From: Candidatus Marinacidobacterales bacterium
Lineage (GTDB): Bacteria; Acidobacteriota; Vicinamibacteria; Marinacidobacterales; SMYC01
Length of the DNA stretch: 64,000 nt
Assembly: GCA_965224085.1 (NCBI GenBank)
Contig: CBDCYI010000004.1
Location: 1,632,001-1,696,000 of the forward strand
Reading direction: 5' to 3'
Translations under genes and position numbers: made by a program
Notes under the pieces: model-generated
Told to the model about the DNA's origin: nothing
Seen by the model: the letters and a program-made list of their open reading frames with translations, nothing else
Databases searched by the model: none
In this document: positions 79 through 54,772 of the stretch, one piece after another
How positions within the stretch are numbered: position 1 is the first letter of the stretch
Layout of the letters: each line of letters starts with the position of its first letter

Positions 79-2328
79 TCAATGCAGCAGGTCGAATTGA
101 TAGTTGTATTTCACGATGAAGCTTCGATTCTGCGGTCCGAAGCGCTCGTTCCCCAAACCGTTGGCGTTGTTGTAGACGATGAACAAACCCGTTCCCGCTG
201 TGTTGAGCCAGCTGAAGCGGATGTTCGACGTCCACAAGTCGAGGTTGTCGTTATATTGGACGAACGCTTGCAGGTAGATGAGCGGGGAAAAGTTGTAGCT
301 GATGCGGAACTGGCCGAGATTGGTGATGAAGCTTCCTTCGACGAGATCGACGTCGTTGTAGGACCATGTCGCTGACGTGATGATCTTCGCCTTATAGCGG
401 TAGTTGATCGTGGTACCGACGGTGGTCTTGCTACCCGAGAGAAAACCGCCATTCTCCAGGTTGCCTGAATAAGACAGAGGCGCCGCCTGGTTCGTGTTCC
501 ACCGCCATGCTATTTCCCAGTTTTGATACGTTCCCGGCTGCACGATAATCCCGTCGGCGATCTCGAAAGACTCTTTCAATCCTTCCACCGGTCGATTGAC
601 GGCGGGGCTGAAAAAAGCGCCGTTCTCGAAATCGATATGGGAATCGATGTGGAGATCTTCGGTCTCCTTGAAGCCGTCGAGGTTCCAGAAGCCACTATAA
701 GTGATGTGAGGTCGGAACTCTCGCAACCATGGGACGTTGGGGCGTACGTTCATGAAAACCCCAGTGTTGAGACTGCGGTAGTCGTCGCGACGCAGAAAAC
801 CCACCTCGGGGTTGAAGTTCTCGCCGACTTCTGCGAATCCCAGCCAGACGCGGCCTCTCTTCACCTGATATTCGGCACGAGCGTTAACGGCATGCTCGCC
901 GCCTTCGAGGCCCGGTGTTTGGGTGCGCGCGGCAAAGCCGGTTAATGTAAAGGCCTCTCCGATGCCGAGTTTACCGTCTAGGCCGAAAGTCCGGTTCCAG
1001 TCGTTCTCGCCCGCCAAGTCTCCGGTCGCGGTTCGGTTGACGAACAAGGCGCCGATGCGGGAGCGGTTCGGGAATTCTCGGATCAAGCTCGCGACGGTGT
1101 AGTTGTTGGCCACCGCGACCCCGGCTTTGTCCTGAGTTTGCATGTTCATGACGCCAACGTCGAAATCTCGGAGCTTGCCGCTCAAGCGGGCGCCGCCCAG
1201 GATCGGCACGATCTCGCCCTCGTCACTGATGCCGATGCGGCGGCTGAAGAACAGCTCCACCGCCTGGGACTGGCCCATCGTGAAGTTCCCAGCGTTTTCG
1301 AGAAAGAAGGGCCGCTTTTCCGGGAAGAACAAGTTGAAGCGGGTTAAGTTGACCTGTTGCGCGTCGACTTCGACTTGGGCGAAGTCGGTGTTGTAGGTGA
1401 GGTCGAGATTCAAAGCCGGCGTAACGCCCAATTTGGCGTCCACGCCCCACTCGGCATCTTTGTTCGCGGATTCGTTGACGGTATAGTCGCGATCGCCCGC
1501 GCCCAAGGCATAGGGCGTCACTTTGAAGTTCCGTGGCGTCGACAGCTCGAGACCTTCGAGAACGCCCGCGGAGGACACGCGGTTGAGGTTGAAGATGCGC
1601 GAGACCGGCGACCAGTACGCGATTTCGCGTTTGCGGCGCACGTTTCTTTGGAAGTTCAAGCCCCAGGTCTGAGGTTTCTCGGACTCATAGCGTAGCGTGC
1701 GCAGGGGGATGGCGAACTCGGCCGACCAGCCGTAGTCGCCGCGCGCGGTCGCGACGGCGAAGCTCGTATCCCAGTTCAAGTTGAATCCAGCGCCGGCGCC
1801 GCCCTGGGAGCGCCGCCCGCTGCCCCGACCAGGGCCTCCGCCCCCGCCCTGGCCTTCGTTCGTCACTTGGGCGTCGTACTCGATGCCGGCCGGGTTGGTG
1901 CCGAAGATGAATCCATTCTGCTTGTCGTGATAGGTGTCGAAGATGATGCGGAATGAATCCGTGTCGTCGAGATTCGAATCGCGGCGTGCGTCCGTTACGA
2001 TGATCTGATTCGGCTCCGAATCGAAGCAGATGACGCTGATGTAAATGTTCCGGTCGTCGTAGAGGATCCGGACTTCGGTTTTCTCCGTGGCCGGTTGTCC
2101 TTCGTAGCGCTCCGCCTGGACGAAATCGGTGATGACCGTGGCTTTTTGCCAGAGATCGTCGTCGACCCGTCCATTGATGACGGGAGCTTCCTCGGTCTTG
2201 GCCGCTTCCGCGACCCGTGTCGTCGCCACGAGAGCCTCGCTGCCTAGGACGAGAGCACCGTGGCACGCCACGAACGTCAAAATGAGAAGAGTCGCTTGGA
2301 GCTTCCTCTTCGGCGCAGTCTTACACAT
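79..2328 (-). CDS. Carbohydrate-binding family 9-like / DUF5916 outer-membrane protein
   Basis: Signal-like N-terminus (ATG 2328 chosen), APVINGRVDD...W CBM9-like start, NTDFAQVEVD and FFPEKRPFFLE motifs, aromatic beta-barrel-like C-terminus. Confidence 0.75.
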   Translation of the reverse strand: MCKTAPKRKLQATLLILTFVACHGALVLGSEALVATTRVAEAAKTEEAPVINGRVDDDLWQKATVITDFVQAERYEGQPATEKTEVRILYDDRNIYISVICFDSEPNQIIVTDARRDSNLDDTDSFRIIFDTYHDKQNGFIFGTNPAGIEYDAQVTNEGQGGGGGPGRGSGRRSQGGAGAGFNLNWDTSFAVATARGDYGWSAEFAIPLRTLRYESEKPQTWGLNFQRNVRRKREIAYWSPVSRIFNLNRVSSAGVLEGLELSTPRNFKVTPYALGAGDRDYTVNESANKDAEWGVDAKLGVTPALNLDLTYNTDFAQVEVDAQQVNLTRFNLFFPEKRPFFLENAGNFTMGQSQAVELFFSRRIGISDEGEIVPILGGARLSGKLRDFDVGVMNMQTQDKAGVAVANNYTVASLIREFPNRSRIGALFVNRTATGDLAGENDWNRTFGLDGKLGIGEAFTLTGFAARTQTPGLEGGEHAVNARAEYQVKRGRVWLGFAEVGENFNPEVGFLRRDDYRSLNTGVFMNVRPNVPWLREFRPHITYSGFWNLDGFKETEDLHIDSHIDFENGAFFSPAVNRPVEGLKESFEIADGIIVQPGTYQNWEIAWRWNTNQAAPLSYSGNLENGGFLSGSKTTVGTTINYRYKAKIITSATWSYNDVDLVEGSFITNLGQFRISYNFSPLIYLQAFVQYNDNLDLWTSNIRFSWLNTAGTGLFIVYNNANGLGNERFGPQNRSFIVKYNYQFDLLH

Positions 2329-2394
2329 GGTCACCAATCTAAACAGTGAGACCCGGAAAAGCAATTATTCGGTAAGCCTATATGGTTCAGGTAT

Positions 2395-3366
2395 TTATGC
2401 GCGCAGGAGCTGCGCGGCTTCTTTAGCGAAATAGGTGAGGATCATGTCGGCGCCTGCGCGTTTAATCGACGTCAAAGCTTCGAGGACGGCTTTGTCGCGA
2501 TCGATCCACCCGCGCTCGGCCGCTGCGATAATCATCCCGTATTCGCCCGAAACGTTATAGGCTGCGATGGGGACGTCGAATTGGGCGCGCACGCGCGCGA
2601 TCACGTCCAGATAGGGAAGCGCCGGCTTGACCATCACAACGTCGGCGCCTTCTTCGATGTCTAGAGCGATCTCGCGCATCGCTTCGCGCTGATTGGCGGG
2701 GTCCATCTGGTACGTCTTCTTGTCGCCTTTGCGCGGCGCGGAGTCGAGAGCGCCGCGGAACGGCCCGTAGAAGCACGAGGCATATTTGGCGGAATAGGCC
2801 AGGATCCCGACCTCCGGGTTGCCCGCCTCGTCGAGAGCGTCGCGGATCGCTCCAACGCGTCCGTCCATCATGTCCGACGGGGCGACCCAGTCGACGCCTG
2901 CCTCTGCATGCGCCACCGCCATCCGGCAGAGGACGTCGACCGTCTCGTCATTCGCGACTTCGCCGTCAATGACGAGCCCGTCGTGACCGTGGACGGAATA
3001 GGGATCAAGCGCGATATCGGTTTGGACGCAGATATCGGGGAGCGCTTTTTTCAGCGCGCGGACCGCCTGCGGGATGACACCTTCCGGGTTGTAGGCTTCG
3101 CTCGCACCGTCGTCCTTCTTCGTCGAATAGCCGAAGAGGTTGACGGCCCGGACGCCCAGCTCCCAGAGCTCCTCGGATTCGCGCACGAGCTCGTCGCTCG
3201 AAAGTCGAAACTGCCCGGGCATCGTCTCGATAGGTTCTCGGAGCCCGCGGCCTTCCTTGATGAAGAGCGGTGCAATGAGCTCTCCCGCGCCGAGCTCGGT
3301 CTCTCGCACGAGGGTGCGGATGGGCTCGCTGCGGCGGAGCCTGCGAGGTCGGTGTACCAAATCCAT
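2395..3366 (-). CDS. hemB: Porphobilinogen synthase (delta-aminolevulinate dehydratase)
   Basis: RPRRLR, APSDMMDGRV, YSAKYASCFYGPFR, YQMDPAN, MVKPALPYLD, AYNVSGEY motifs. Confidence 0.97.
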   Translation of the reverse strand: MDLVHRPRRLRRSEPIRTLVRETELGAGELIAPLFIKEGRGLREPIETMPGQFRLSSDELVRESEELWELGVRAVNLFGYSTKKDDGASEAYNPEGVIPQAVRALKKALPDICVQTDIALDPYSVHGHDGLVIDGEVANDETVDVLCRMAVAHAEAGVDWVAPSDMMDGRVGAIRDALDEAGNPEVGILAYSAKYASCFYGPFRGALDSAPRKGDKKTYQMDPANQREAMREIALDIEEGADVVMVKPALPYLDVIARVRAQFDVPIAAYNVSGEYGMIIAAAERGWIDRDKAVLEALTSIKRAGADMILTYFAKEAAQLLRA

Positions 3367-3413
3367 ATTGAGCAGGTTGTATCAGAAATAGATGCGGCCT
3401 CACAAGATGCGCT

Positions 3414-4082
3414 ATGCTCCCGCCCGTGACCAAGGATCAAGTGCTTTTCACCGAGCTGCTCGCTCGAAACGATGTGATCCGCTTCGGGGAATTCACGTTG
3501 AAATCCGGCCGTCTATCGCCGTATTTCATCAACGCTGGCCAGTTGCGAACAGGGAGCGCGATTGCCGGTCTTGGCCGCGCTTATGCGGCGCGCATCCTCG
3601 ACAGGAAGCTGCCTTGCGATTTCATTTTCGGCCCCTCTTACAAAGGTGTACCGCTTGCGGTCGCGACGGCAGTAGCGCTTGCCGAGCGCGGACGGGATCT
3701 CGGCTTCGCTTTCGATCGCAAGGAAGTGAAGGACCATGGTGAGGGCGGCCGCTTCGTCGGCACGCAGCCGGAAAGCGGCATGCGCGCGGTCGTTGTGGAC
3801 GACGTGATCACATCGGGCGCCTCGATCCGCTATTCAGTCGAGCTTCTGAGAGAAGCATCGGTGGAGGTCACCGGAGCGGTCATCGCTGTGGATCGCGAGG
3901 AAAGAGGCTCGGGAACGAGAACGACACTGTCCGAGCTCGAAGAGAGCTTGAAGATCCCTGTGCTCCCAATCATCACGGTGAGCGAAATGGTCGAGCACCT
4001 TCACACAAGCGGAAGCTTGAGCGCGGAAATGAAGGCCCGGATCGAAGACTACGTGCGGGAGCACGGAGCGGAGGCGGGTTGA
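3414..4082 (+). CDS. pyrE: Orotate phosphoribosyltransferase
   Basis: FGEFTLKSGRLSPYF, GPSYKGVPL, DRKEVKDHGEGG, VVDDVITSG PRPP-binding loop. Confidence 0.96.
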   Translation: MLPPVTKDQVLFTELLARNDVIRFGEFTLKSGRLSPYFINAGQLRTGSAIAGLGRAYAARILDRKLPCDFIFGPSYKGVPLAVATAVALAERGRDLGFAFDRKEVKDHGEGGRFVGTQPESGMRAVVVDDVITSGASIRYSVELLREASVEVTGAVIAVDREERGSGTRTTLSELEESLKIPVLPIITVSEMVEHLHTSGSLSAEMKARIEDYVREHGAEAG

Positions 4083-49991: not shown

Positions 49992-50364
49992 TGCTACCAA
50001 TCCAATGGTGTCTACGAGGTTGTCGTTCCGGTGAAGGATCTGGCGCGGGCCGAGTCCTTCTATTGCGGTGTTCTCGGACTCGAAGTTGGGATTCGGGACG
50101 AAGAACGGAGATGGCTTTTTCTACGCGCGGGAGGAACGGCGGGGATGGTTGTGCTCCAGGAAAACAAGGCGGGGTTTCCCAAGACTCATTTCGCGCTCGC
50201 GGTGAACGAGGGCGACATAGACGCCGCAGCATCTACGCTGAGGAAGCAGGGGATCACCGTCAAGGGCCCCATATTGATTGAGTGGATGCCCGCGAAATCC
50301 ATCTACTTTCGCCGATCCCGACGATCACGATTTGGAGCTGTGTGCGCTCATTGAACGACGCTAG
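49991..50364 (+). pseudogene. VOC/glyoxalase family protein with two 1-nt frameshifts (about 50002 and 50308)
   Basis: Repaired reading MLPINGVYEVVVPVKDLARAESFY...HFAL...SIYFADPDDHDLELCAL. Confidence 0.75.
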
Positions 50365-50446
50365 CAACAGAACCCTCGGCGGAGCCTCCCTACCGTTTGA
50401 CCCCCTCCTCCCAGGCCGCTACATTCCTCTTTAAATAAGGTTACGA

Positions 50447-50516
50447 ATGGCCCTCACTTCGGGAACCCGCCTAGGCCCCTACGAGATCCTCTCTCCAGTC
50501 GGCAAAGGGGGAATGG
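50447..50516 (+). pseudogene. N-terminal part of a Ser/Thr kinase gene interrupted by IS110
   Basis: MALTSGTRLGPYEILSPVGKGGM(G), which continues as GEVYKAKDTRL at 53155. Confidence 0.92.
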
Positions 50517-50557
50517 ACTCCCCACGCCGGATCAAGAGAAAACGTTCTTCGTAATAG

Positions 50558-51814
50558 TCATCCGCGATTCGCTTTTTTTGTGGGCCACCGGGAGGGGTCG
50601 TAAAGGGTTCCTTGTCGAAGCATCGCAATGGCGATGGGGAGAATGCGGTCCATGACGCCTCTGAGAGCTCTGGCATGGCTGTGGCCTCTGTCACGAAGCC
50701 GGTCGTAGTGTTCTTTGAAGTGGGGGTCGTGCAAAACGGCAGTGCGTGCCCAATGGTGGAGAGCATTATTGAGGGGCAAAGAGCGAGCTCTCCTCATCAG
50801 GATCGTTGGTCGCAACTGACCGCGCTTGCCGCTCTTTTTTGTGACAGGAGCAATGCCGCCGAGAGTCCTGAAGGCGTTGAGATTACGGAGCCGAATGGGG
50901 TCGTGGGCATAGCAGAGCACGGAGGCGAGCACGTAAGCACCGACGCCGGGCAAAGAGGCAAGAATGGCAGGGTCGGAGCAATGCTCGTCGGTTAGTGCTT
51001 GCACGCGCTTGAACCACTTCTCGAGATGCTGGTCGGAGGCACGACGATGTTGTCGAACGAGGAGCAACTGCTGGAGTAGTAGTTGGAGATGCTCGGCGGT
51101 AGCTTGAGTGGTTGCGGTTGCGACCCGGAGAGGTTTTTGTTTGAGGGTATCGAGGATCTTCTCGGGTTTTAGACGTCGGATGCGGTGTTTTTGAGCGAGG
51201 GTCTCAATGGAGTGGCGGCTAAGAGGGTTGGGGCTGGATTCGAAGAAGAGTTTTAGGAGCTCGCAGAAAAAAGCGTCGAGAGCCTTGTCCTTTGGCGCGA
51301 GCGAGACGAGGTGAGGCCAGCAACGAGTAAGGAGTTCTCGGATCTGCGAGCTGAGGGCCACATGGTTTTTGACGAGTTGGTCGCGGGTACTCAGCAACCC
51401 GCGCATAGCGAGGATCTCCGTAGGTGGGAGATGCAAGCGCTGAAAGCGGTGGCCGTCGGTTCTGAGCGAATCGGCGAGAACGAAGGCGTCTCGCCGATCA
51501 TCCTTGGCGCCGCTCATAGAATGCCGGTCGCGGAAACGGTCGACCTGCTTGGGATTGATGGAGAAAATGGCGATGCCGTGGTCAAGAAAGAGCTCGACGA
51601 CGGCCCCATGAGGTTTTTCGATCGCCACCGCGATGCGCTCGGTATCTTGCGAGGTCTCTTCCAAAAGCCAGTCGATGGTTCCCGATAGTCCTTCGCGGCT
51701 ATGGGGGAAGCCTCTCTCCGCCAAGAAGTTACCTTTGGCATCGACCACACTGGCCAAGTGAAGCCATTGACCCAGGTCGATACCGACGAAGAAGTCGTAT
51801 TTGAGTTGATTCAT
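50558..51814 (-). CDS. IS110 family DEDD recombinase/transposase
   Basis: FVGID, AIEKP, INPKQVDRFR, KDDRRDAFVLA, SLPGVG, GIAPVTKKSGK (Ser); alternative start 51826. Confidence 0.95.
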   Translation of the reverse strand: MNQLKYDFFVGIDLGQWLHLASVVDAKGNFLAERGFPHSREGLSGTIDWLLEETSQDTERIAVAIEKPHGAVVELFLDHGIAIFSINPKQVDRFRDRHSMSGAKDDRRDAFVLADSLRTDGHRFQRLHLPPTEILAMRGLLSTRDQLVKNHVALSSQIRELLTRCWPHLVSLAPKDKALDAFFCELLKLFFESSPNPLSRHSIETLAQKHRIRRLKPEKILDTLKQKPLRVATATTQATAEHLQLLLQQLLLVRQHRRASDQHLEKWFKRVQALTDEHCSDPAILASLPGVGAYVLASVLCYAHDPIRLRNLNAFRTLGGIAPVTKKSGKRGQLRPTILMRRARSLPLNNALHHWARTAVLHDPHFKEHYDRLRDRGHSHARALRGVMDRILPIAIAMLRQGTLYDPSRWPTKKANRG

Positions 51815-51840
51815 GGAAGAACTCATTTCCGCCAGCGCAT

Positions 51841-51974
51841 GTGATGTTTCATCGGCCCCTGTACTGGCGCTCGAAGCGCAACTCCCCACTGGATGTCCAT
51901 CACAAAAGAATTGCCGGCACGCATGTCCATTCCTGGCGCTAGGAGCGCAGGGCGACGTATGGCGTTGCCGGCAA
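51841..51974 (-). ncRNA. IS110 bridge RNA core (target-binding loop, then donor-binding loop)
   Basis: Two stem-closed loops, each with a GCGCT-nnn-AGCGC inner hairpin, flanked by guides matching the insertion site and both element ends; transcript ends not determined. Confidence 0.85.
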
Positions 51975-52021
51975 GCTGCTGACGAAATCGAAAATAGTCC
52001 AAGCTCATCGTGATATTTGCT

Positions 52022-52438
52022 CTACCATGGCAATCGGAGTTGTCGCGCGATGCCACGAGTTCGTGCTCGGTTTTTTCTCGGTAGTTTCGGGCGAAGCACG
52101 TCCGAGAGTTTTTCTCGAATGTAAAGAACATAAGGCGGGTCTAGATATTGACTTTGCACTTCCTGGAGCACAGGTGAAAAATAACGAAGGGAGCGAATGG
52201 GCTGCAGTGGCTCCTCATGTTCTTGTAGCTCCCTACGAGCGCAACCCAGAAGTAGGGCACACTCGAATTCGTGTAACGGGACTCCTTGGCGGTAGAGCTG
52301 CGTCGCGATGAAGCGGTCGTCGCGCCGTGGCCGCTCAGGTGTGTTCGGAATGGAAAGATAGAGGTCCAAAATCGTCCGGACGTAATTGTTTTCTGTCAGA
52401 GCATCGCTCGTGAGCGGTTCATTACCCAGCTTCGACAT
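52022..52438 (-). CDS. Hypothetical 138-aa accessory protein inside IS110
   Basis: Intact ORF overlapping the upstream ORF; YVRTILDLY...LYRQGVPL...PIRSLRYFSPVLQEV. Confidence 0.7.
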   Translation of the reverse strand: MSKLGNEPLTSDALTENNYVRTILDLYLSIPNTPERPRRDDRFIATQLYRQGVPLHEFECALLLGCARRELQEHEEPLQPIRSLRYFSPVLQEVQSQYLDPPYVLYIREKLSDVLRPKLPRKNRARTRGIARQLRLPW

Positions 52439-52835
52439 CCTTTAGCCTCCCGCGTCGGCCGCAGATACAGCATTTGGCATATCTGATACTGTCAATCTTC
52501 GTTTTCATTGAATGAGCCATCGGGCCACTAGCTTGAATTTCACGAACTCCTAGACTGCCAGAATTACTGGGGTGAATGAACCCTTGCTCCGTCACTATTT
52601 TCGCCGCCTGGCGTAGACGATAATTCTGTTGCCGAGCCGCGTGGAGTTTTCGTGAGTTGAAACCTTTCTGGTAATTTCGGTTATTTTCGCGCTGGTTCTC
52701 TCGCCGGGTTTCGTCACGGCAGGTTGGACCGCAGTAGCACTGTCCCTGGTAACATGACTTGCAGATGAAGAAAGGCATCCCACAGCTTTTGTTGCGGCAG
52801 AAAAGCCGGAGAAGAACGACAGGTTTGGTGGCCAT
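52422..52835 (-). CDS. Cys-rich putative Zn-finger protein inside IS110
   Basis: CRNKSC, CKSC, CYCGPTC, basic helix, terminal CCICG; start may be 52931. Confidence 0.7.
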   Translation of the reverse strand: MATKPVVLLRLFCRNKSCGMPFFICKSCYQGQCYCGPTCRDETRRENQRENNRNYQKGFNSRKLHAARQQNYRLRQAAKIVTEQGFIHPSNSGSLGVREIQASGPMAHSMKTKIDSIRYAKCCICGRRGRLKDVEAG

Positions 52836-53153
52836 TCGGAACTCAGCAAAGTGCTGGACGATGGCCGCCCGGATGTGAGAGGCTAGCTTCAACTTGTAGT
52901 GGAGCGCCTCCTCCGGGGGCCATCCAAACATCAGAGCCCCGGTCGTTTGTAGCGGCTGGGGCTCACTATTGTCGCACAGCAGGTTCACCCTCTTCTTGCC
53001 GGCGCGAGACGATCTGACTGACTCGCGCCAAAGGCGCGAGAGGATGCTGGCCTCGCGCCAGAGGCGCGGGATGAGGCCTTGTACACAGACATTTCCTACC
53101 GACTCTTCCCGCAACACACGCTTTCGCTGCACTGATGCTTCGGCAAGCGTACA

Positions 53154-54552
53154 GGGCGAGGTCTACAAAGCCAAAGACACTCGGCTCGACCGCACAGTGG
53201 CCATCAAAGTCCTCCCCGAGCACCTCGCAGAAAGCCCCGAACGCAAGGCGCGCTTCGAGCGTGAGGCCAAGGCGATTTCGCAGCTCAATCATCCTCACAT
53301 TTGCACCCTTTATGACGTAGGCGAGCAAGACGGGGTCGATTATCTCGTCATGGAGTACATCGAAGGGGAAACGCTGGCGAACGCGCTGAAGCGCGGTGCC
53401 CTGCCACTCGATAAGGCGCTCGAATACGGCATTCAAATCGCGGATGGTCTGGACACGGCGCATCGCGCGGGCATCGTCCACCGAGATCTGAAACCCGCCA
53501 ATGCGATGCTGACGAAGCCCGGTATCAAGCTCTTGGATTTCGGCCTGGCGAGGCTCATCAAAGAAGACGACGGTCCCGAGACATCCGATGCACTTACACG
53601 GCAGAGAGATCTACCAAGGAAGAATCCATCATCGGGACGCTTCAGTACATGGCTCCCGAACAGCTGGAACGGAGGCCGGCGGATGCGCGGACAGACATCT
53701 TCGCTATGGGCGTTGTGCTGTACGAGATGGTTACCGGAAACAAGGCGTTTGCGGGCGAAAGCCAGGCGAGCTTGATCGGCGCTATCTTAAAAGACGATCC
53801 GCCGTCCCTGTCTGCGTTCTCCCCGATGTCGCCTCCGGCGCTGGACCATGTCGTCAAGACGTGCCTCGCCAAAGATCCCGACGAGCGATGCCAGTCAGCG
53901 GGCGAGGTGGAACGCAACTTGAAGTGGATCCGCGACGCCGGAGCCGATGCCAAAGTGTCTGCTCCAACGGGTGTTACTCGACGCGGGTTCTGGTCGCTTT
54001 GTCGACGTACTCCTGGGCGCCGCGCTCGCGACGGCTGTCACGGCCCTTGTCGTCATTGCGCTCATTCGGCCCGACGCACCGCACGTATCTCGCTTAGCTA
54101 TATCCGCTCCGCTCGGGCAACCCATTTCTATGTCGAATTGGAACGTGGACTTGGCGATCTCACCGGACGGCAGCCGGATCGTCTACGTTGGCCAAATCGA
54201 GACAGGAGAACGACAGCTCTTCATTCGTCGTTTGGATCAATACGAACCTGAAGCTCTAGACGGAACGGGTCCTGACCCTCGGAATCCGTTTTTCTCGCCC
54301 GACGGATCGTGGGTGGGGTATGTTGAGGACGTCCAGCCTCGGCGCCTGATGAGGGTCTCCACCCTGGGCGGTCCGCCACTTGTCATCGGTGCGGGCGTCT
54401 TCGTGTGGGGTGCCAGCTGGGGCGCGGACGACAAAACATCATCTTCGCCGAGCGAGGGCGCCTCCTTCGCGTCTCGGCCAGCGGTGGCGAGCCGGAGATT
54501 CTGGCGGCCGCGGATGGGCTCTTCTACTCCTGGCCGGACGTGTTGCCCGGAC
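53154..54552 (+). pseudogene. Remainder of the Ser/Thr kinase-TM-TolB gene; frameshifts near 53613, 53995 and 54433, truncated near 54552
   Basis: VAIKVL, HRDLKPAN, KLLDFGLA, GTLQYMAPEQ, TM segment, AISPDGSRIVY, PFFSPDG. Confidence 0.9.
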
Positions 54553-54772
54553 ACTCAACGACAAAAACGACGCTAGTGGCGTGTGTCCGGTCCCTCTAAA
54601 CGCTTGATACGTGACGACAACGTCGAGAAGTGCCTTAGTGTCGAGCCCATCCGAGGACTTAAAATCCTCGGCATGAATCACAACAAGGCGACCGGGAAGC
54701 ACTTCGAGTCTTTTCTCCTCATTACTTGCTGCTCCACTTCGTGGTCCGCGACCTTCTCTGCTAGAATACTGC

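What the first reader, a model, noticed from the sequence alone, without database searches (positions are those of the whole stretch)
51841..51974. Bridge RNA decodable by eye: all four guides match the insertion site and element ends
Seen (+ strand): GGGCGACGT 51950-58 matches the target flank GGGCGAGGT 53154-62 at 8/9. GTCCATTCC 51925-33 is the exact reverse complement of the junction GGAATGGAC 50510-18. ACTCCCCAC 51881-89 equals the element end 50517-25. CCTGTAC 51858-64 is the reverse complement of GTACAGG 53149-55. Each guide pair flanks the same inner hairpin (GCGCT-AGG-AGCGC or GCGCT-CGA-AGCGC) and is closed by stems (TTGCCGGCA/TGCCGGCAA; GTGATG/CATCAC). Known: this matches the target-loop then donor-loop layout of IS110 bridge RNAs. 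Inference: the extra AC on the right target guide pairs with donor GT, like a handshake guide. The left donor guide stops just before the CC core, unlike the left target guide. This is a candidate programmable recombinase with a CC/GG core.
Basis: partly seen in the sequence, partly recalled or inferred. Interest (0 to 1): 0.85.

Follow-up and report, generated by a model that had tools for sequence, protein, structure and literature searches.

The report
Bridge RNA transposon targeting kinase genes
This is a genuine RNA-guided (IS110-type) jumping gene whose guide RNA steers it into the codons of a conserved loop of protein-kinase genes; the mechanism is known, but the target and two extra genes it carries are unusual.

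Summary
All four words sit at the stated coordinates, in the order and strands expected of an IS110 bridge RNA read on the minus strand. The chance of all four is about 1e-9.

The element is 2639 bp (50517-53155). It has an intact DEDD/Ser transposase and splits a Ser/Thr kinase gene at its glycine-rich loop.

A covariance model of the RNA hits directly upstream of 53 of 60 related transposases. 32 of 37 stem pairs show compensatory changes. Guides covary with flanks: 0 of 5000 permutations reach the observed match for either target guide.

- In 44 close relatives the target guides spell Gly-Met-Gly-Asp/Glu-Val codons and vary almost only at third codon positions. All 34 recovered left flanks have that kinase motif, and 30 of 35 right flanks do.
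- This clade carries one or two conserved unknown genes between the element end and the RNA. The RNA therefore lies 0.6-1.2 kb from the end, against 11-230 nt in 30 of 32 distant relatives.
- The same two genes flank IstA/IstB in IS21-like elements elsewhere.

Transcription and activity were not shown. The mechanism is a known kind; the architecture and target are a new variant.

The parts
50517..53155 (-). Whole IS110-family element, 2639 bp, bounded by the two-base core on each side
   Evidence: The own genome holds three identical full copies and one at 99.8%, each with different flanks. It also holds deleted or truncated copies and an 85-91% second lineage. The empty site is seen in relatives.
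50558..51814 (-). Transposase (bridge recombinase), 418 aa from the ATG at 51814; an upstream in-frame ATG lies at 51826
   Evidence: PF01548 at 2.8e-31 and PF02371 at 1.1e-11. NF033542 above its cut-off. It aligns to IS621 chain 8wt6_A at E 2.2e-7, with the catalytic Ser and the D, E, D, D positions matched.
51832..51988 (-). Bridge RNA gene (extent of the covariance-model match)
   Evidence: Model R1 scores 184.6 bits here. The consensus structure has 32 of 37 pairs with compensatory change.
51911..51974 (-). Target-binding loop with its closing stem. Left target guide 51950-58 (7 nt plus core). Inner hairpin 51936-48. Right target guide 51927-33 (5 nt plus core). Handshake dinucleotide 51925-26.
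   Evidence: Read. Guide-flank covariation.
51841..51903 (-). Donor-binding loop with its closing stem. Left donor guide 51881-89 (9 nt, no core). Inner hairpin 51867-79. Right donor guide 51858-64 (5 nt plus core). Handshake positions 51856-57.
   Evidence: Read. Donor guides and element ends change together in the variant relatives L047, L050, L051, L026, L062, L061.
52022..52438 (-). Accessory gene 2, 138 aa, predicted five-helix protein of no known family
   Evidence: 72 homologues, none with a Pfam family. AF2 mean pLDDT 79.8. No fold match. Present in 36 of 43 clade loci.
52422..52835 (-). Accessory gene 1, 137 aa from the conserved Met; eight conserved Cys; predicted zinc ribbon plus long helix
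   Evidence: 14 homologues with invariant Cys columns. AF2 mean pLDDT 67.8. No fold match. Found in 37 of 43 clade loci; five of the six misses have under about 840 nt of contig upstream of the transposase, and L173 has 653 nt.
53141..53155 (-). Left-end terminus: core, right-donor word and a conserved -10-like hexamer
   Evidence: Positions +3 to +8 after the core keep five of six bases fixed in 28 unique left ends.
50517..50557 (-). Right non-coding end with the left-donor word and a -35-like hexamer (50530-35)
   Evidence: A -35-like hexamer lies 13 or 14 nt before the core in all 24 unique right ends. With the left end this gives a 17-18 nt spacer across the circle junction. The promoter reading is by eye.
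50448..50516 (+). 5' part of the interrupted Ser/Thr kinase gene, ending in the glycine-rich loop
   Evidence: Translation. Orthologues.
53156..54576 (+). 3' part of the interrupted kinase gene, with a frame change near 53574-53604
   Evidence: Pkinase profile positions 13-153 and 149-253 are matched in two frames.

Best explanation
The region encodes the bridge RNA of an IS110-group insertion sequence.

Inferred from the IS621 model: the excised element forms a circle. The joined right and left ends form the donor site and probably a promoter. The transposase binds the RNA. The donor loop pairs with the joined ends, and the target loop pairs with a 14-bp site. Recombination at the shared CC core inserts the element, and the handshake bases favour insertion over excision.

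Shown here: the fold is conserved. All four guides match their DNA partners. Guides and flanks change together across relatives. The catalytic residues are intact. Near-identical copies sit at different sites.

Specific to this clade: the target guides spell the codons Gly-Met-Gly-Asp/Glu-Val of the kinase glycine-rich loop, read antisense to the kinase. The element therefore homes into members of a large paralogous gene family. Guide variants differ at codon third positions.

The RNA lies behind one or two accessory genes. It is therefore probably made as part of a long transcript from the junction promoter, or from read-through (inferred).
For: Four matches, with chance about 1e-9.

IS110 domains and catalytic residues.

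The RNA model hits just upstream of the transposase in 53 of 60 related loci. 91.1% of cells are paired against 28-40% for slid partners, and 0 of 500 shuffles reach the observed value.

Left target guide against flank: mean 7.49 of 9 over 35 unique pairs, against 5.04 for cross pairs, 0 of 5000 permutations. Right target guide: 13 of 20 unique pairs match 5 of 5, mean 4.1 against 1.98, 0 of 5000.

Within this genome the second lineage changed one base in each target guide. Two of its three left flanks carry exactly that base.

Close clade, 44 RNAs:
- 20 distinct guide pairs, variable only at positions 3, 9 and 12, plus one RNA that differs at 10-11.
- 34 of 34 left flanks and 30 of 35 right flanks have the kinase motif.
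- Position 3 covaries in 18 of 31 pairs (15 of 20000 permutations). Position 12 covaries in 15 of 31 (408 of 20000).

There are 10 RNA copies in this genome. At least 7 insertions lie in kinase loops.

Extended bridge RNAs of up to 775 nt still work in IS621 (PMC13626964, passages).
Against: - No transcript was shown. The laid metatranscriptome contigs are fragments at 90-95% identity, and they cannot show strand, ends or expression.
- No Rfam family matched.
- The single-sequence fold is not unusually stable: z = -1.30, and 22 of 200 shuffles fold at least as well.
- The consensus scan found no sigma-70-like promoter inside the element.
- The RNA lies 1168 nt from the left end, unlike the studied elements.
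- The resident guide matches its own flank at only 8 of 9. Only 1 of 26 natural pairs is perfect over 14 nt; 14 have 1 mismatch, 8 have 2 and 3 have 3.
- Position 9 shows no significant covariation: 14 of 31, 4703 of 20000 permutations.
- Some insertions in this genome lie outside kinases and match poorly (L004, L012).
- The alignments used for the pair counts were fitted to the model, which favours the structure.
Confidence: 0.9

Rival explanations
1. The repeats are DNA-level binding sites for the transposase (internal copies of the ends), not an RNA guide.
For: The two donor words are literal copies of the element ends, one direct and one inverted. No transcript was shown.
Against: The target words match DNA outside the element and change with it across relatives. 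Stems keep pairing through compensatory changes in 32 of 37 pairs; this serves a folded single strand, not duplex sites. The protein is homologous to IS621, which is shown to use an RNA.
Confidence: 0.03
2. The bridge RNA is real, but the 1.1-kb stretch with the two extra genes is an inert passenger. It would be a remnant of an IS21-like element nested in the left end, with no role in transposition.
For: Homologues of both genes are the first and last genes of IS21-like units (zinc protein, IstA, IstB, helical protein) in other genomes of the phylum. Cargo-bearing IS110 elements are reported as common (bioRxiv 10.64898/2026.08.14.744561; abstract and section 5 read). No function could be assigned.
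Against: The zinc-protein gene is kept in every clade locus that reaches far enough upstream, across transposases of 60-94% identity, with intact frames and conserved Cys. It always lies on the transposase strand, between the junction promoter-like site and the RNA. One-gene and two-gene forms both persist.
Confidence: 0.45
3. The family is active elsewhere, but the copies in this genome are no longer mobile.
For: Several copies are deleted or truncated (L005, L008, L009, L010, L012). No unoccupied site in the genome matches the resident guides perfectly: 0 for lineage 1.
Against: Three full copies are 100% identical at different sites. The reading frame and catalytic residues are intact.
Confidence: 0.15

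Closest known systems
IS621 bridge recombinase and bridge RNA (E. coli; Durrant et al. 2024, Hiraizumi et al. 2024)
   Same: DEDD plus Ser transposase. RNA upstream of the gene. Target loop, then donor loop. The 5' sides pair with the bottom strand and the 3' sides with the top strand. A two-base core is shared by donor and target. Handshake bases give one pair before exchange and three after. A -35-like box sits in the right end.
   Different: Sequence similarity is detectable only in the C-terminal domain (E 2.2e-7). The protein has 418 aa, against 326 stated for IS621 in bioRxiv 10.64898/2026.08.14.744561 (section 5). The core is CC, not CT. The right target guide is 5 nt plus core. The left donor guide does not cover the core. 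The RNA lies 1168 nt from the left end, behind two genes. The target is a coding motif rather than a REP element.
Cargo-bearing, expanded IS110 elements (Hu et al., bioRxiv 10.64898/2026.08.14.744561)
   Same: An IS110 element larger than the canonical 1.0-1.6 kb that carries extra genes and no other transposase.
   Different: Here the extra genes are small, are conserved across a whole clade, and sit between the end and the RNA. The preprint stresses plasmid-derived and resistance cargo. I read its abstract and one section only, and its supplements are closed. I cannot say whether this clade appears there.
IS1111 group / seekRNA elements
   Same: Same superfamily and the same guide logic.
   Different: There the RNA lies downstream of the transposase, in a long right end with long subterminal inverted repeats (PMC11208160). 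Here it lies upstream.
IS21-family elements (IstA/IstB)
   Same: Homologues of both accessory genes occur in them, as first and last gene.
   Different: The window's element has no IstA or IstB.

Membership tests
IS110 family (IS110 group) bridge-RNA element | N-terminal DEDD RuvC-like domain | tested here: met
   PF01548 at 2.8e-31 covers the full profile. The D, E, D, D positions align with IS621 (weak first stretch).
IS110 family (IS110 group) bridge-RNA element | C-terminal Tnp domain with the conserved serine | tested here: met
   PF02371 at 1.1e-11. The Ser aligns with the catalytic Ser of 8wt6_A.
IS110 family (IS110 group) bridge-RNA element | Structured non-coding RNA with two internal loops, upstream of the transposase | tested here: met
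   53 of 60 relatives, and 32 of 37 pairs compensatory.
IS110 family (IS110 group) bridge-RNA element | Loop sides complementary to the bottom-left and top-right strands of target and donor, core included | tested here: met
   for all four guides. The exception is the left donor guide, which lacks the core throughout the family.
IS110 family (IS110 group) bridge-RNA element | Guides covary with flanks across orthologues | tested here: met
IS110 family (IS110 group) bridge-RNA element | Core dinucleotide shared by donor and target, present at both junctions | tested here: met
IS110 family (IS110 group) bridge-RNA element | Promoter rebuilt at the joined ends of the circle | tested here: inconclusive
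   Conserved -35-like and -10-like hexamers with a 17-18 nt spacer, judged by eye. The joined sequence could not be given to the scanner.
IS110 family (IS110 group) bridge-RNA element | The RNA is transcribed and required for recombination | not testable with these tools
   Only contigs from RNA libraries were available, and these are no evidence either way.
IS110 family (IS110 group) bridge-RNA element | Short left end, with the RNA next to the terminus | tested here: not met
   The distance is 1168 nt here and 607-1205 nt in 35 clade loci. In 30 of 32 distant relatives it is 11-230 nt. This is a habit of the family and does not define it.
IS1111 group | RNA in a long right end downstream of the gene | tested here: not met
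   The right end is 41 nt, and the RNA lies upstream.
Rfam RNA families | Match to a curated model | tested here: not met
   No match up to E = 1.

The most novel reading that the evidence does not exclude
This is a multi-gene bridge system that specialises in a protein-coding target.

A clade of RNA-guided elements spreads through the Ser/Thr kinase paralogues of its hosts by homing to the codons of the glycine-rich loop. Its guides diversify at wobble positions to reach new paralogues.

Its zinc-ribbon and helical accessory proteins, which it shares with IS21-like elements, would be working parts of transposition. They might control excision, or release the RNA from a long junction transcript.
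Probability: 0.2. Interest if true: 0.75.

Novelty: new variant of a known kind. Interest (0 to 1): 0.45.

Why it matters
The bridge RNA itself adds one more clear, easily decoded member to a family known since 2024.

Three things could matter beyond that:
- It is a natural case in which an RNA-guided transposon targets a conserved coding motif of a large gene family, not intergenic repeats. The guide changes at synonymous positions give a readable record of how guides track their targets.
- It shows a conserved gene module between the junction and the RNA. This bears on how bridge RNAs are expressed and on whether helper proteins exist.
- It offers a compact CC-core orthologue with clean 7+2 and 5+2 guides as a candidate tool.

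Two full-text searches for IS110 together with kinase targets found nothing relevant. That is a narrow check, and supplements were closed.

Tried and rejected
- Rfam scan of 50000-53600: nothing.
- Single-sequence folding: not significant.
- Promoter scan inside the element: 0 sites.
- Pfam, NCBIfam and PHROGs on the two accessory proteins: nothing above threshold.
- Foldseek against PDB for both models: no match at E <= 0.001.
- ESM Atlas for the zinc protein: only unnamed clusters.
- Complex prediction of the two accessory proteins: no verdict, score 0.00, not evidence either way.
- The RNA model on 28 loci around distant homologues of the 138-aa protein: no credible hit. These loci turned out to be IS21-like.
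- Laying four RNA-library runs: fragmentary contigs of relatives. Cover over 51855-51951 comes from the conserved donor loop shared by many elements. No claim on expression or habitat.
- Right-end search in the large distant subgroup: the end word was mostly not found in the search window, so only 21 right flanks entered.
- I considered a coding reading of the RNA region (the 443-aa GTG-start frame and the 66-aa and 102-aa frames). I rejected it because the Pfam domain starts at residue 10 of the ATG-start protein, and the stems change in a compensatory way.

Full report
THE OBSERVATION

I read 50300-53400. A recount from coordinates finds the three exact words at the junctions and in the RNA region, on the stated strands. 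In 20000 shuffles of 51841-51974 the four words appeared 1044, 21, 24 and 346 times. Their joint chance is therefore about 1e-9 before order and strand are required.

WHAT SURROUNDS IT

The minus strand carries a 418-aa gene (50558-51814).
- It has the Pfam domains DEDD_Tnp_IS110 (2.8e-31) and Transposase_20 (1.1e-11).
- It passes NCBI's model for IS110 RNA-guided transposases, 162.9 bits against a cut-off of 140.
- It aligns with the solved IS621 transposase at E 2.2e-7, and the catalytic serine and the acidic residues are in place.

The flanks are the two halves of a Ser/Thr kinase gene, cut inside the glycine-rich loop. Seven uninterrupted relatives of that kinase in other genomes show the empty site. 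It has three G where the occupied site has two at the left junction and three at the right. The element is therefore 2639 bp, and the core is GG on the + strand, CC in the element's sense.

COPIES IN THE SAME GENOME

The element's DNA gives 16 matches.
- Three full copies are 100% identical, and a fourth is 99.8% identical. Each has different flanks.
- One copy has an internal 174-nt deletion.
- One copy lacks 1028 nt, nearly the whole transposase, but keeps the RNA and both extra genes.
- Two copies are truncated.
- A second lineage at 85-91% identity has one full and two partial copies.
- One fragment of the left end is 77% identical.
- The RNA model finds 10 RNA copies.

At least seven insertions, counting both lineages and the fragment, sit in kinase glycine-rich loops. 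Five do not; one of these lies in an RNase R-like gene.

ANATOMY IN THE ELEMENT'S SENSE

Target loop:
- The closing stem runs 51974-51966 with 51919-51911, extended by four more pairs.
- The 5' side carries a 9-nt guide with the sense of the left target plus core (8 of 9 to this flank).
- An inner hairpin follows.
- The 3' side is antisense to the core plus five bases of the right target, then two more bases.

Donor loop:
- It is built the same way.
- Its 5' guide equals the last nine bases of the element's right end and stops before the core.
- Its 3' guide is antisense to the core plus the first five bases of the left end.

This is the scheme given for IS621, in which the 5' sides pair with the bottom strand and the 3' sides with the top strand (PMC11208160, passages).

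The two bases after the right target guide pair with positions 6-7 of the donor and mismatch the cognate target at position 7. Counting both loops, one Watson-Crick pair is possible before strand exchange and three after. That is the asymmetry said to favour insertion in IS621 (PMC11208158; PMC13626964; passages only).

RELATIVES AND STRUCTURE

A scan of one genome per species gave 60 loci with related transposases, 32-90% identical. I built a covariance model from six RNAs, using the consensus fold minus the pairs inside the guides.
- The model matched directly upstream of the transposase in 53 of the 60 loci, all on the gene's strand.
- On that alignment 91.1% of cells pair, against 28-40% when partners are slid.
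- 32 of 37 pairs show changes on both sides.
- 0 of 500 shuffles reach the observed values.

The alignment was fitted to the model, which leans towards the structure. The single-sequence fold is not special (z = -1.30), and Rfam has no match.

GUIDE-FLANK COVARIATION

I took the guides from the alignment columns. I located each element's ends with its own donor guides and compared the target guides with the flanks.

Left end:
- A left end was found in 47 of 54 rows. Five had no end word, and two had it more than 1300 nt away and were dropped.
- 35 unique guide-flank pairs match at a mean of 7.49 of 9, against 5.04 for cross pairs. 0 of 5000 permutations reach this.
- A few of the 35 are probably false end calls (for example L058 and L041). 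They were kept.

Right end:
- A right end was found in 21 rows, giving 20 unique pairs.
- 13 of these match 5 of 5. The mean is 4.1 against 1.98, and 0 of 5000 permutations reach it.
- Matching stops after five bases.

Where the donor guides differ from the majority, the ends differ in the same way (L047, L050, L051, L026, L062). In L061 the core itself changes in three guides and in the DNA.

Inside the window's own genome, the second lineage changed one base in each target guide. Two of its three left flanks carry exactly that base.

THE TARGET IS A CODING MOTIF

A metagenome scan added 40 loci with transposases 60-94% identical. With L018, L034, L006 and the window this makes 44 RNAs.

Read in the kinase's sense, the two target guides spell the following:
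- a glycine codon;
- the methionine codon;
- a second glycine codon;
- an Asp or Glu codon;
- the first two bases of a valine codon.

There are 20 distinct guide pairs. They vary only at positions 3, 9 and 12, the three free third positions. The one exception is an RNA that differs at 10-11, and its flank differs there too.

Flanks and mismatches:
- All 34 recovered left flanks agree with the window's flank outside the wobble positions, and so do 30 of 35 right flanks.
- Guide and flank agree at position 3 in 18 of 31 unique pairs (15 of 20000 permutations).
- They agree at position 12 in 15 of 31 (408 of 20000).
- They agree at position 9 in 14 of 31, which is not significant (4703 of 20000).
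- Of 26 pairs with both flanks, 1 is perfect over 14 nt, 14 have one mismatch, 8 have two and 3 have three.

The own genome:
- There are 61 matches to the kinase profile, 52 of them over the cut-off. Matches are not gene counts.
- There are 13 unoccupied sites of the degenerate form.
- None of these sites fits the lineage-1 guides perfectly, and one fits lineage 2.

THE EXTRA GENES

In 30 of the 32 distant-relative pairs the left end starts 11-230 nt before the RNA; the other two are weak or doubtful end calls. In the close clade the distance is 607-622 nt (6 loci) or 987-1205 nt (29 loci).

The space holds a 137-aa protein with eight conserved cysteines. It was found in 37 of 43 loci. Five of the six misses have under about 840 nt of contig upstream of the transposase. 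The sixth, L173, has 653 nt, so absence there is not shown. In the longer form the space also holds a 138-aa helical protein, found in 36 of 43 loci.

Neither protein has a Pfam, NCBIfam or PHROG family. Neither has a fold match in the PDB.

Homologues of both occur in 24 and 21 of 400 other genomes of the phylum, often in many identical copies. The coordinates in those two calls put them 2-3 kb apart in at least eight genomes. In two loci I confirmed the order zinc protein, IstA-like transposase, IstB ATPase, helical protein, with touching or overlapping genes. The module is therefore shared between IS21-like and IS110 elements.

Among clade members the accessory proteins are far more diverged than the transposase. 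In L160, for example, identity is 49% against 93.5%. This hints at exchange of the module.

EXPRESSION

The consensus scan finds no promoter inside the element.

Across the clade the right end keeps a -35-like hexamer 13 or 14 nt before the core, in all 24 unique ends. The left end keeps a -10-like hexamer at +3 to +8, in 28 unique ends. Across the joined ends this gives a 17-18 nt spacer. The promoter reading is mine, by eye. It fits the junction promoter described for IS621 (PMC11208160).

If it is right, the transcript runs through the accessory genes, then the RNA, then the transposase. Bridge RNAs extended to 775 nt still work for IS621 at about half efficiency (PMC13626964).

I could not show transcription. 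The four RNA-library runs that I laid are contigs of relatives and prove nothing here.

VERDICT

The mechanism is the known bridge-RNA mechanism, and the element passes every family test that sequence can address.

It departs from the studied elements in three ways: its coding-motif target with wobble-varied guides, its conserved accessory genes, and the resulting distance between the RNA and the element end. Cargo on IS110 elements as such is already reported (bioRxiv 10.64898/2026.08.14.744561, abstract and section 5).

Two full-text searches found no report of kinase-loop targeting. That is a thin basis for claiming it is new.

Noticed in passing
own genome, contig C11 near 655,221 (minus strand); not in the window: Another kinase gene has, exactly at its glycine-rich loop, only the last 16 bases of this element's left end, joined to the loop's upstream codons. 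It looks like a scar left by deletion of an inserted copy through a short shared stretch.
   Followed up: partly
L158 (G385) 928-3948 and L159 (G015) 798-3818: These are IS21-like units with four tightly packed genes: zinc-ribbon protein, IstA-like transposase, IstB ATPase and a small helical protein. The first and last are homologues of the window element's two accessory genes. They occur in 7-10 copies per genome.
   Followed up: partly
window 53001-53077: Two to three tandem copies of a G+C-rich palindrome (8-bp stem) lie about 80-150 nt inside the left end, upstream of the zinc-protein gene. Their function is unknown.
   Followed up: no
L009/L014 (own genome, C5 333,088-334,698): This copy has lost 1028 nt, nearly the whole transposase, but keeps both ends, the bridge RNA and both accessory genes, and sits at its own site. 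It could be a non-autonomous derivative.
   Followed up: no
window 53574-53604: The interrupted kinase gene also changes frame here: the profile is matched in two frames. The disrupted gene is decaying.
   Followed up: no
window 52969-53775 (+); L034 1467-2675; L018 156-2774: On the kinase's strand a frame stays open from inside the left end into the kinase remnant. In L034 a start codon lies within the last bases of the element. This may be chance in G+C-rich DNA, or a way to express the downstream kinase part.
   Followed up: no
L007/L016 (own genome, C11 764,578-766,945): A second-lineage copy ends abruptly and abuts an inverted 28-nt right end of another copy with its own flank. This is a rearrangement between two copies.
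   Followed up: no
clade loci L160-L199: The accessory proteins are much more diverged than the transposase between the same pairs of elements; in L160 the zinc protein is 49% identical and the transposase 93.5%. This suggests that the accessory module is exchanged.
   Followed up: no
own genome, 8 places (e.g. C4 254,420; C9 393,600): An unrelated repeat of at least 59 nt occurs 8 times and happens to contain the 9-nt left-end word. It is probably another mobile element.
   Followed up: no
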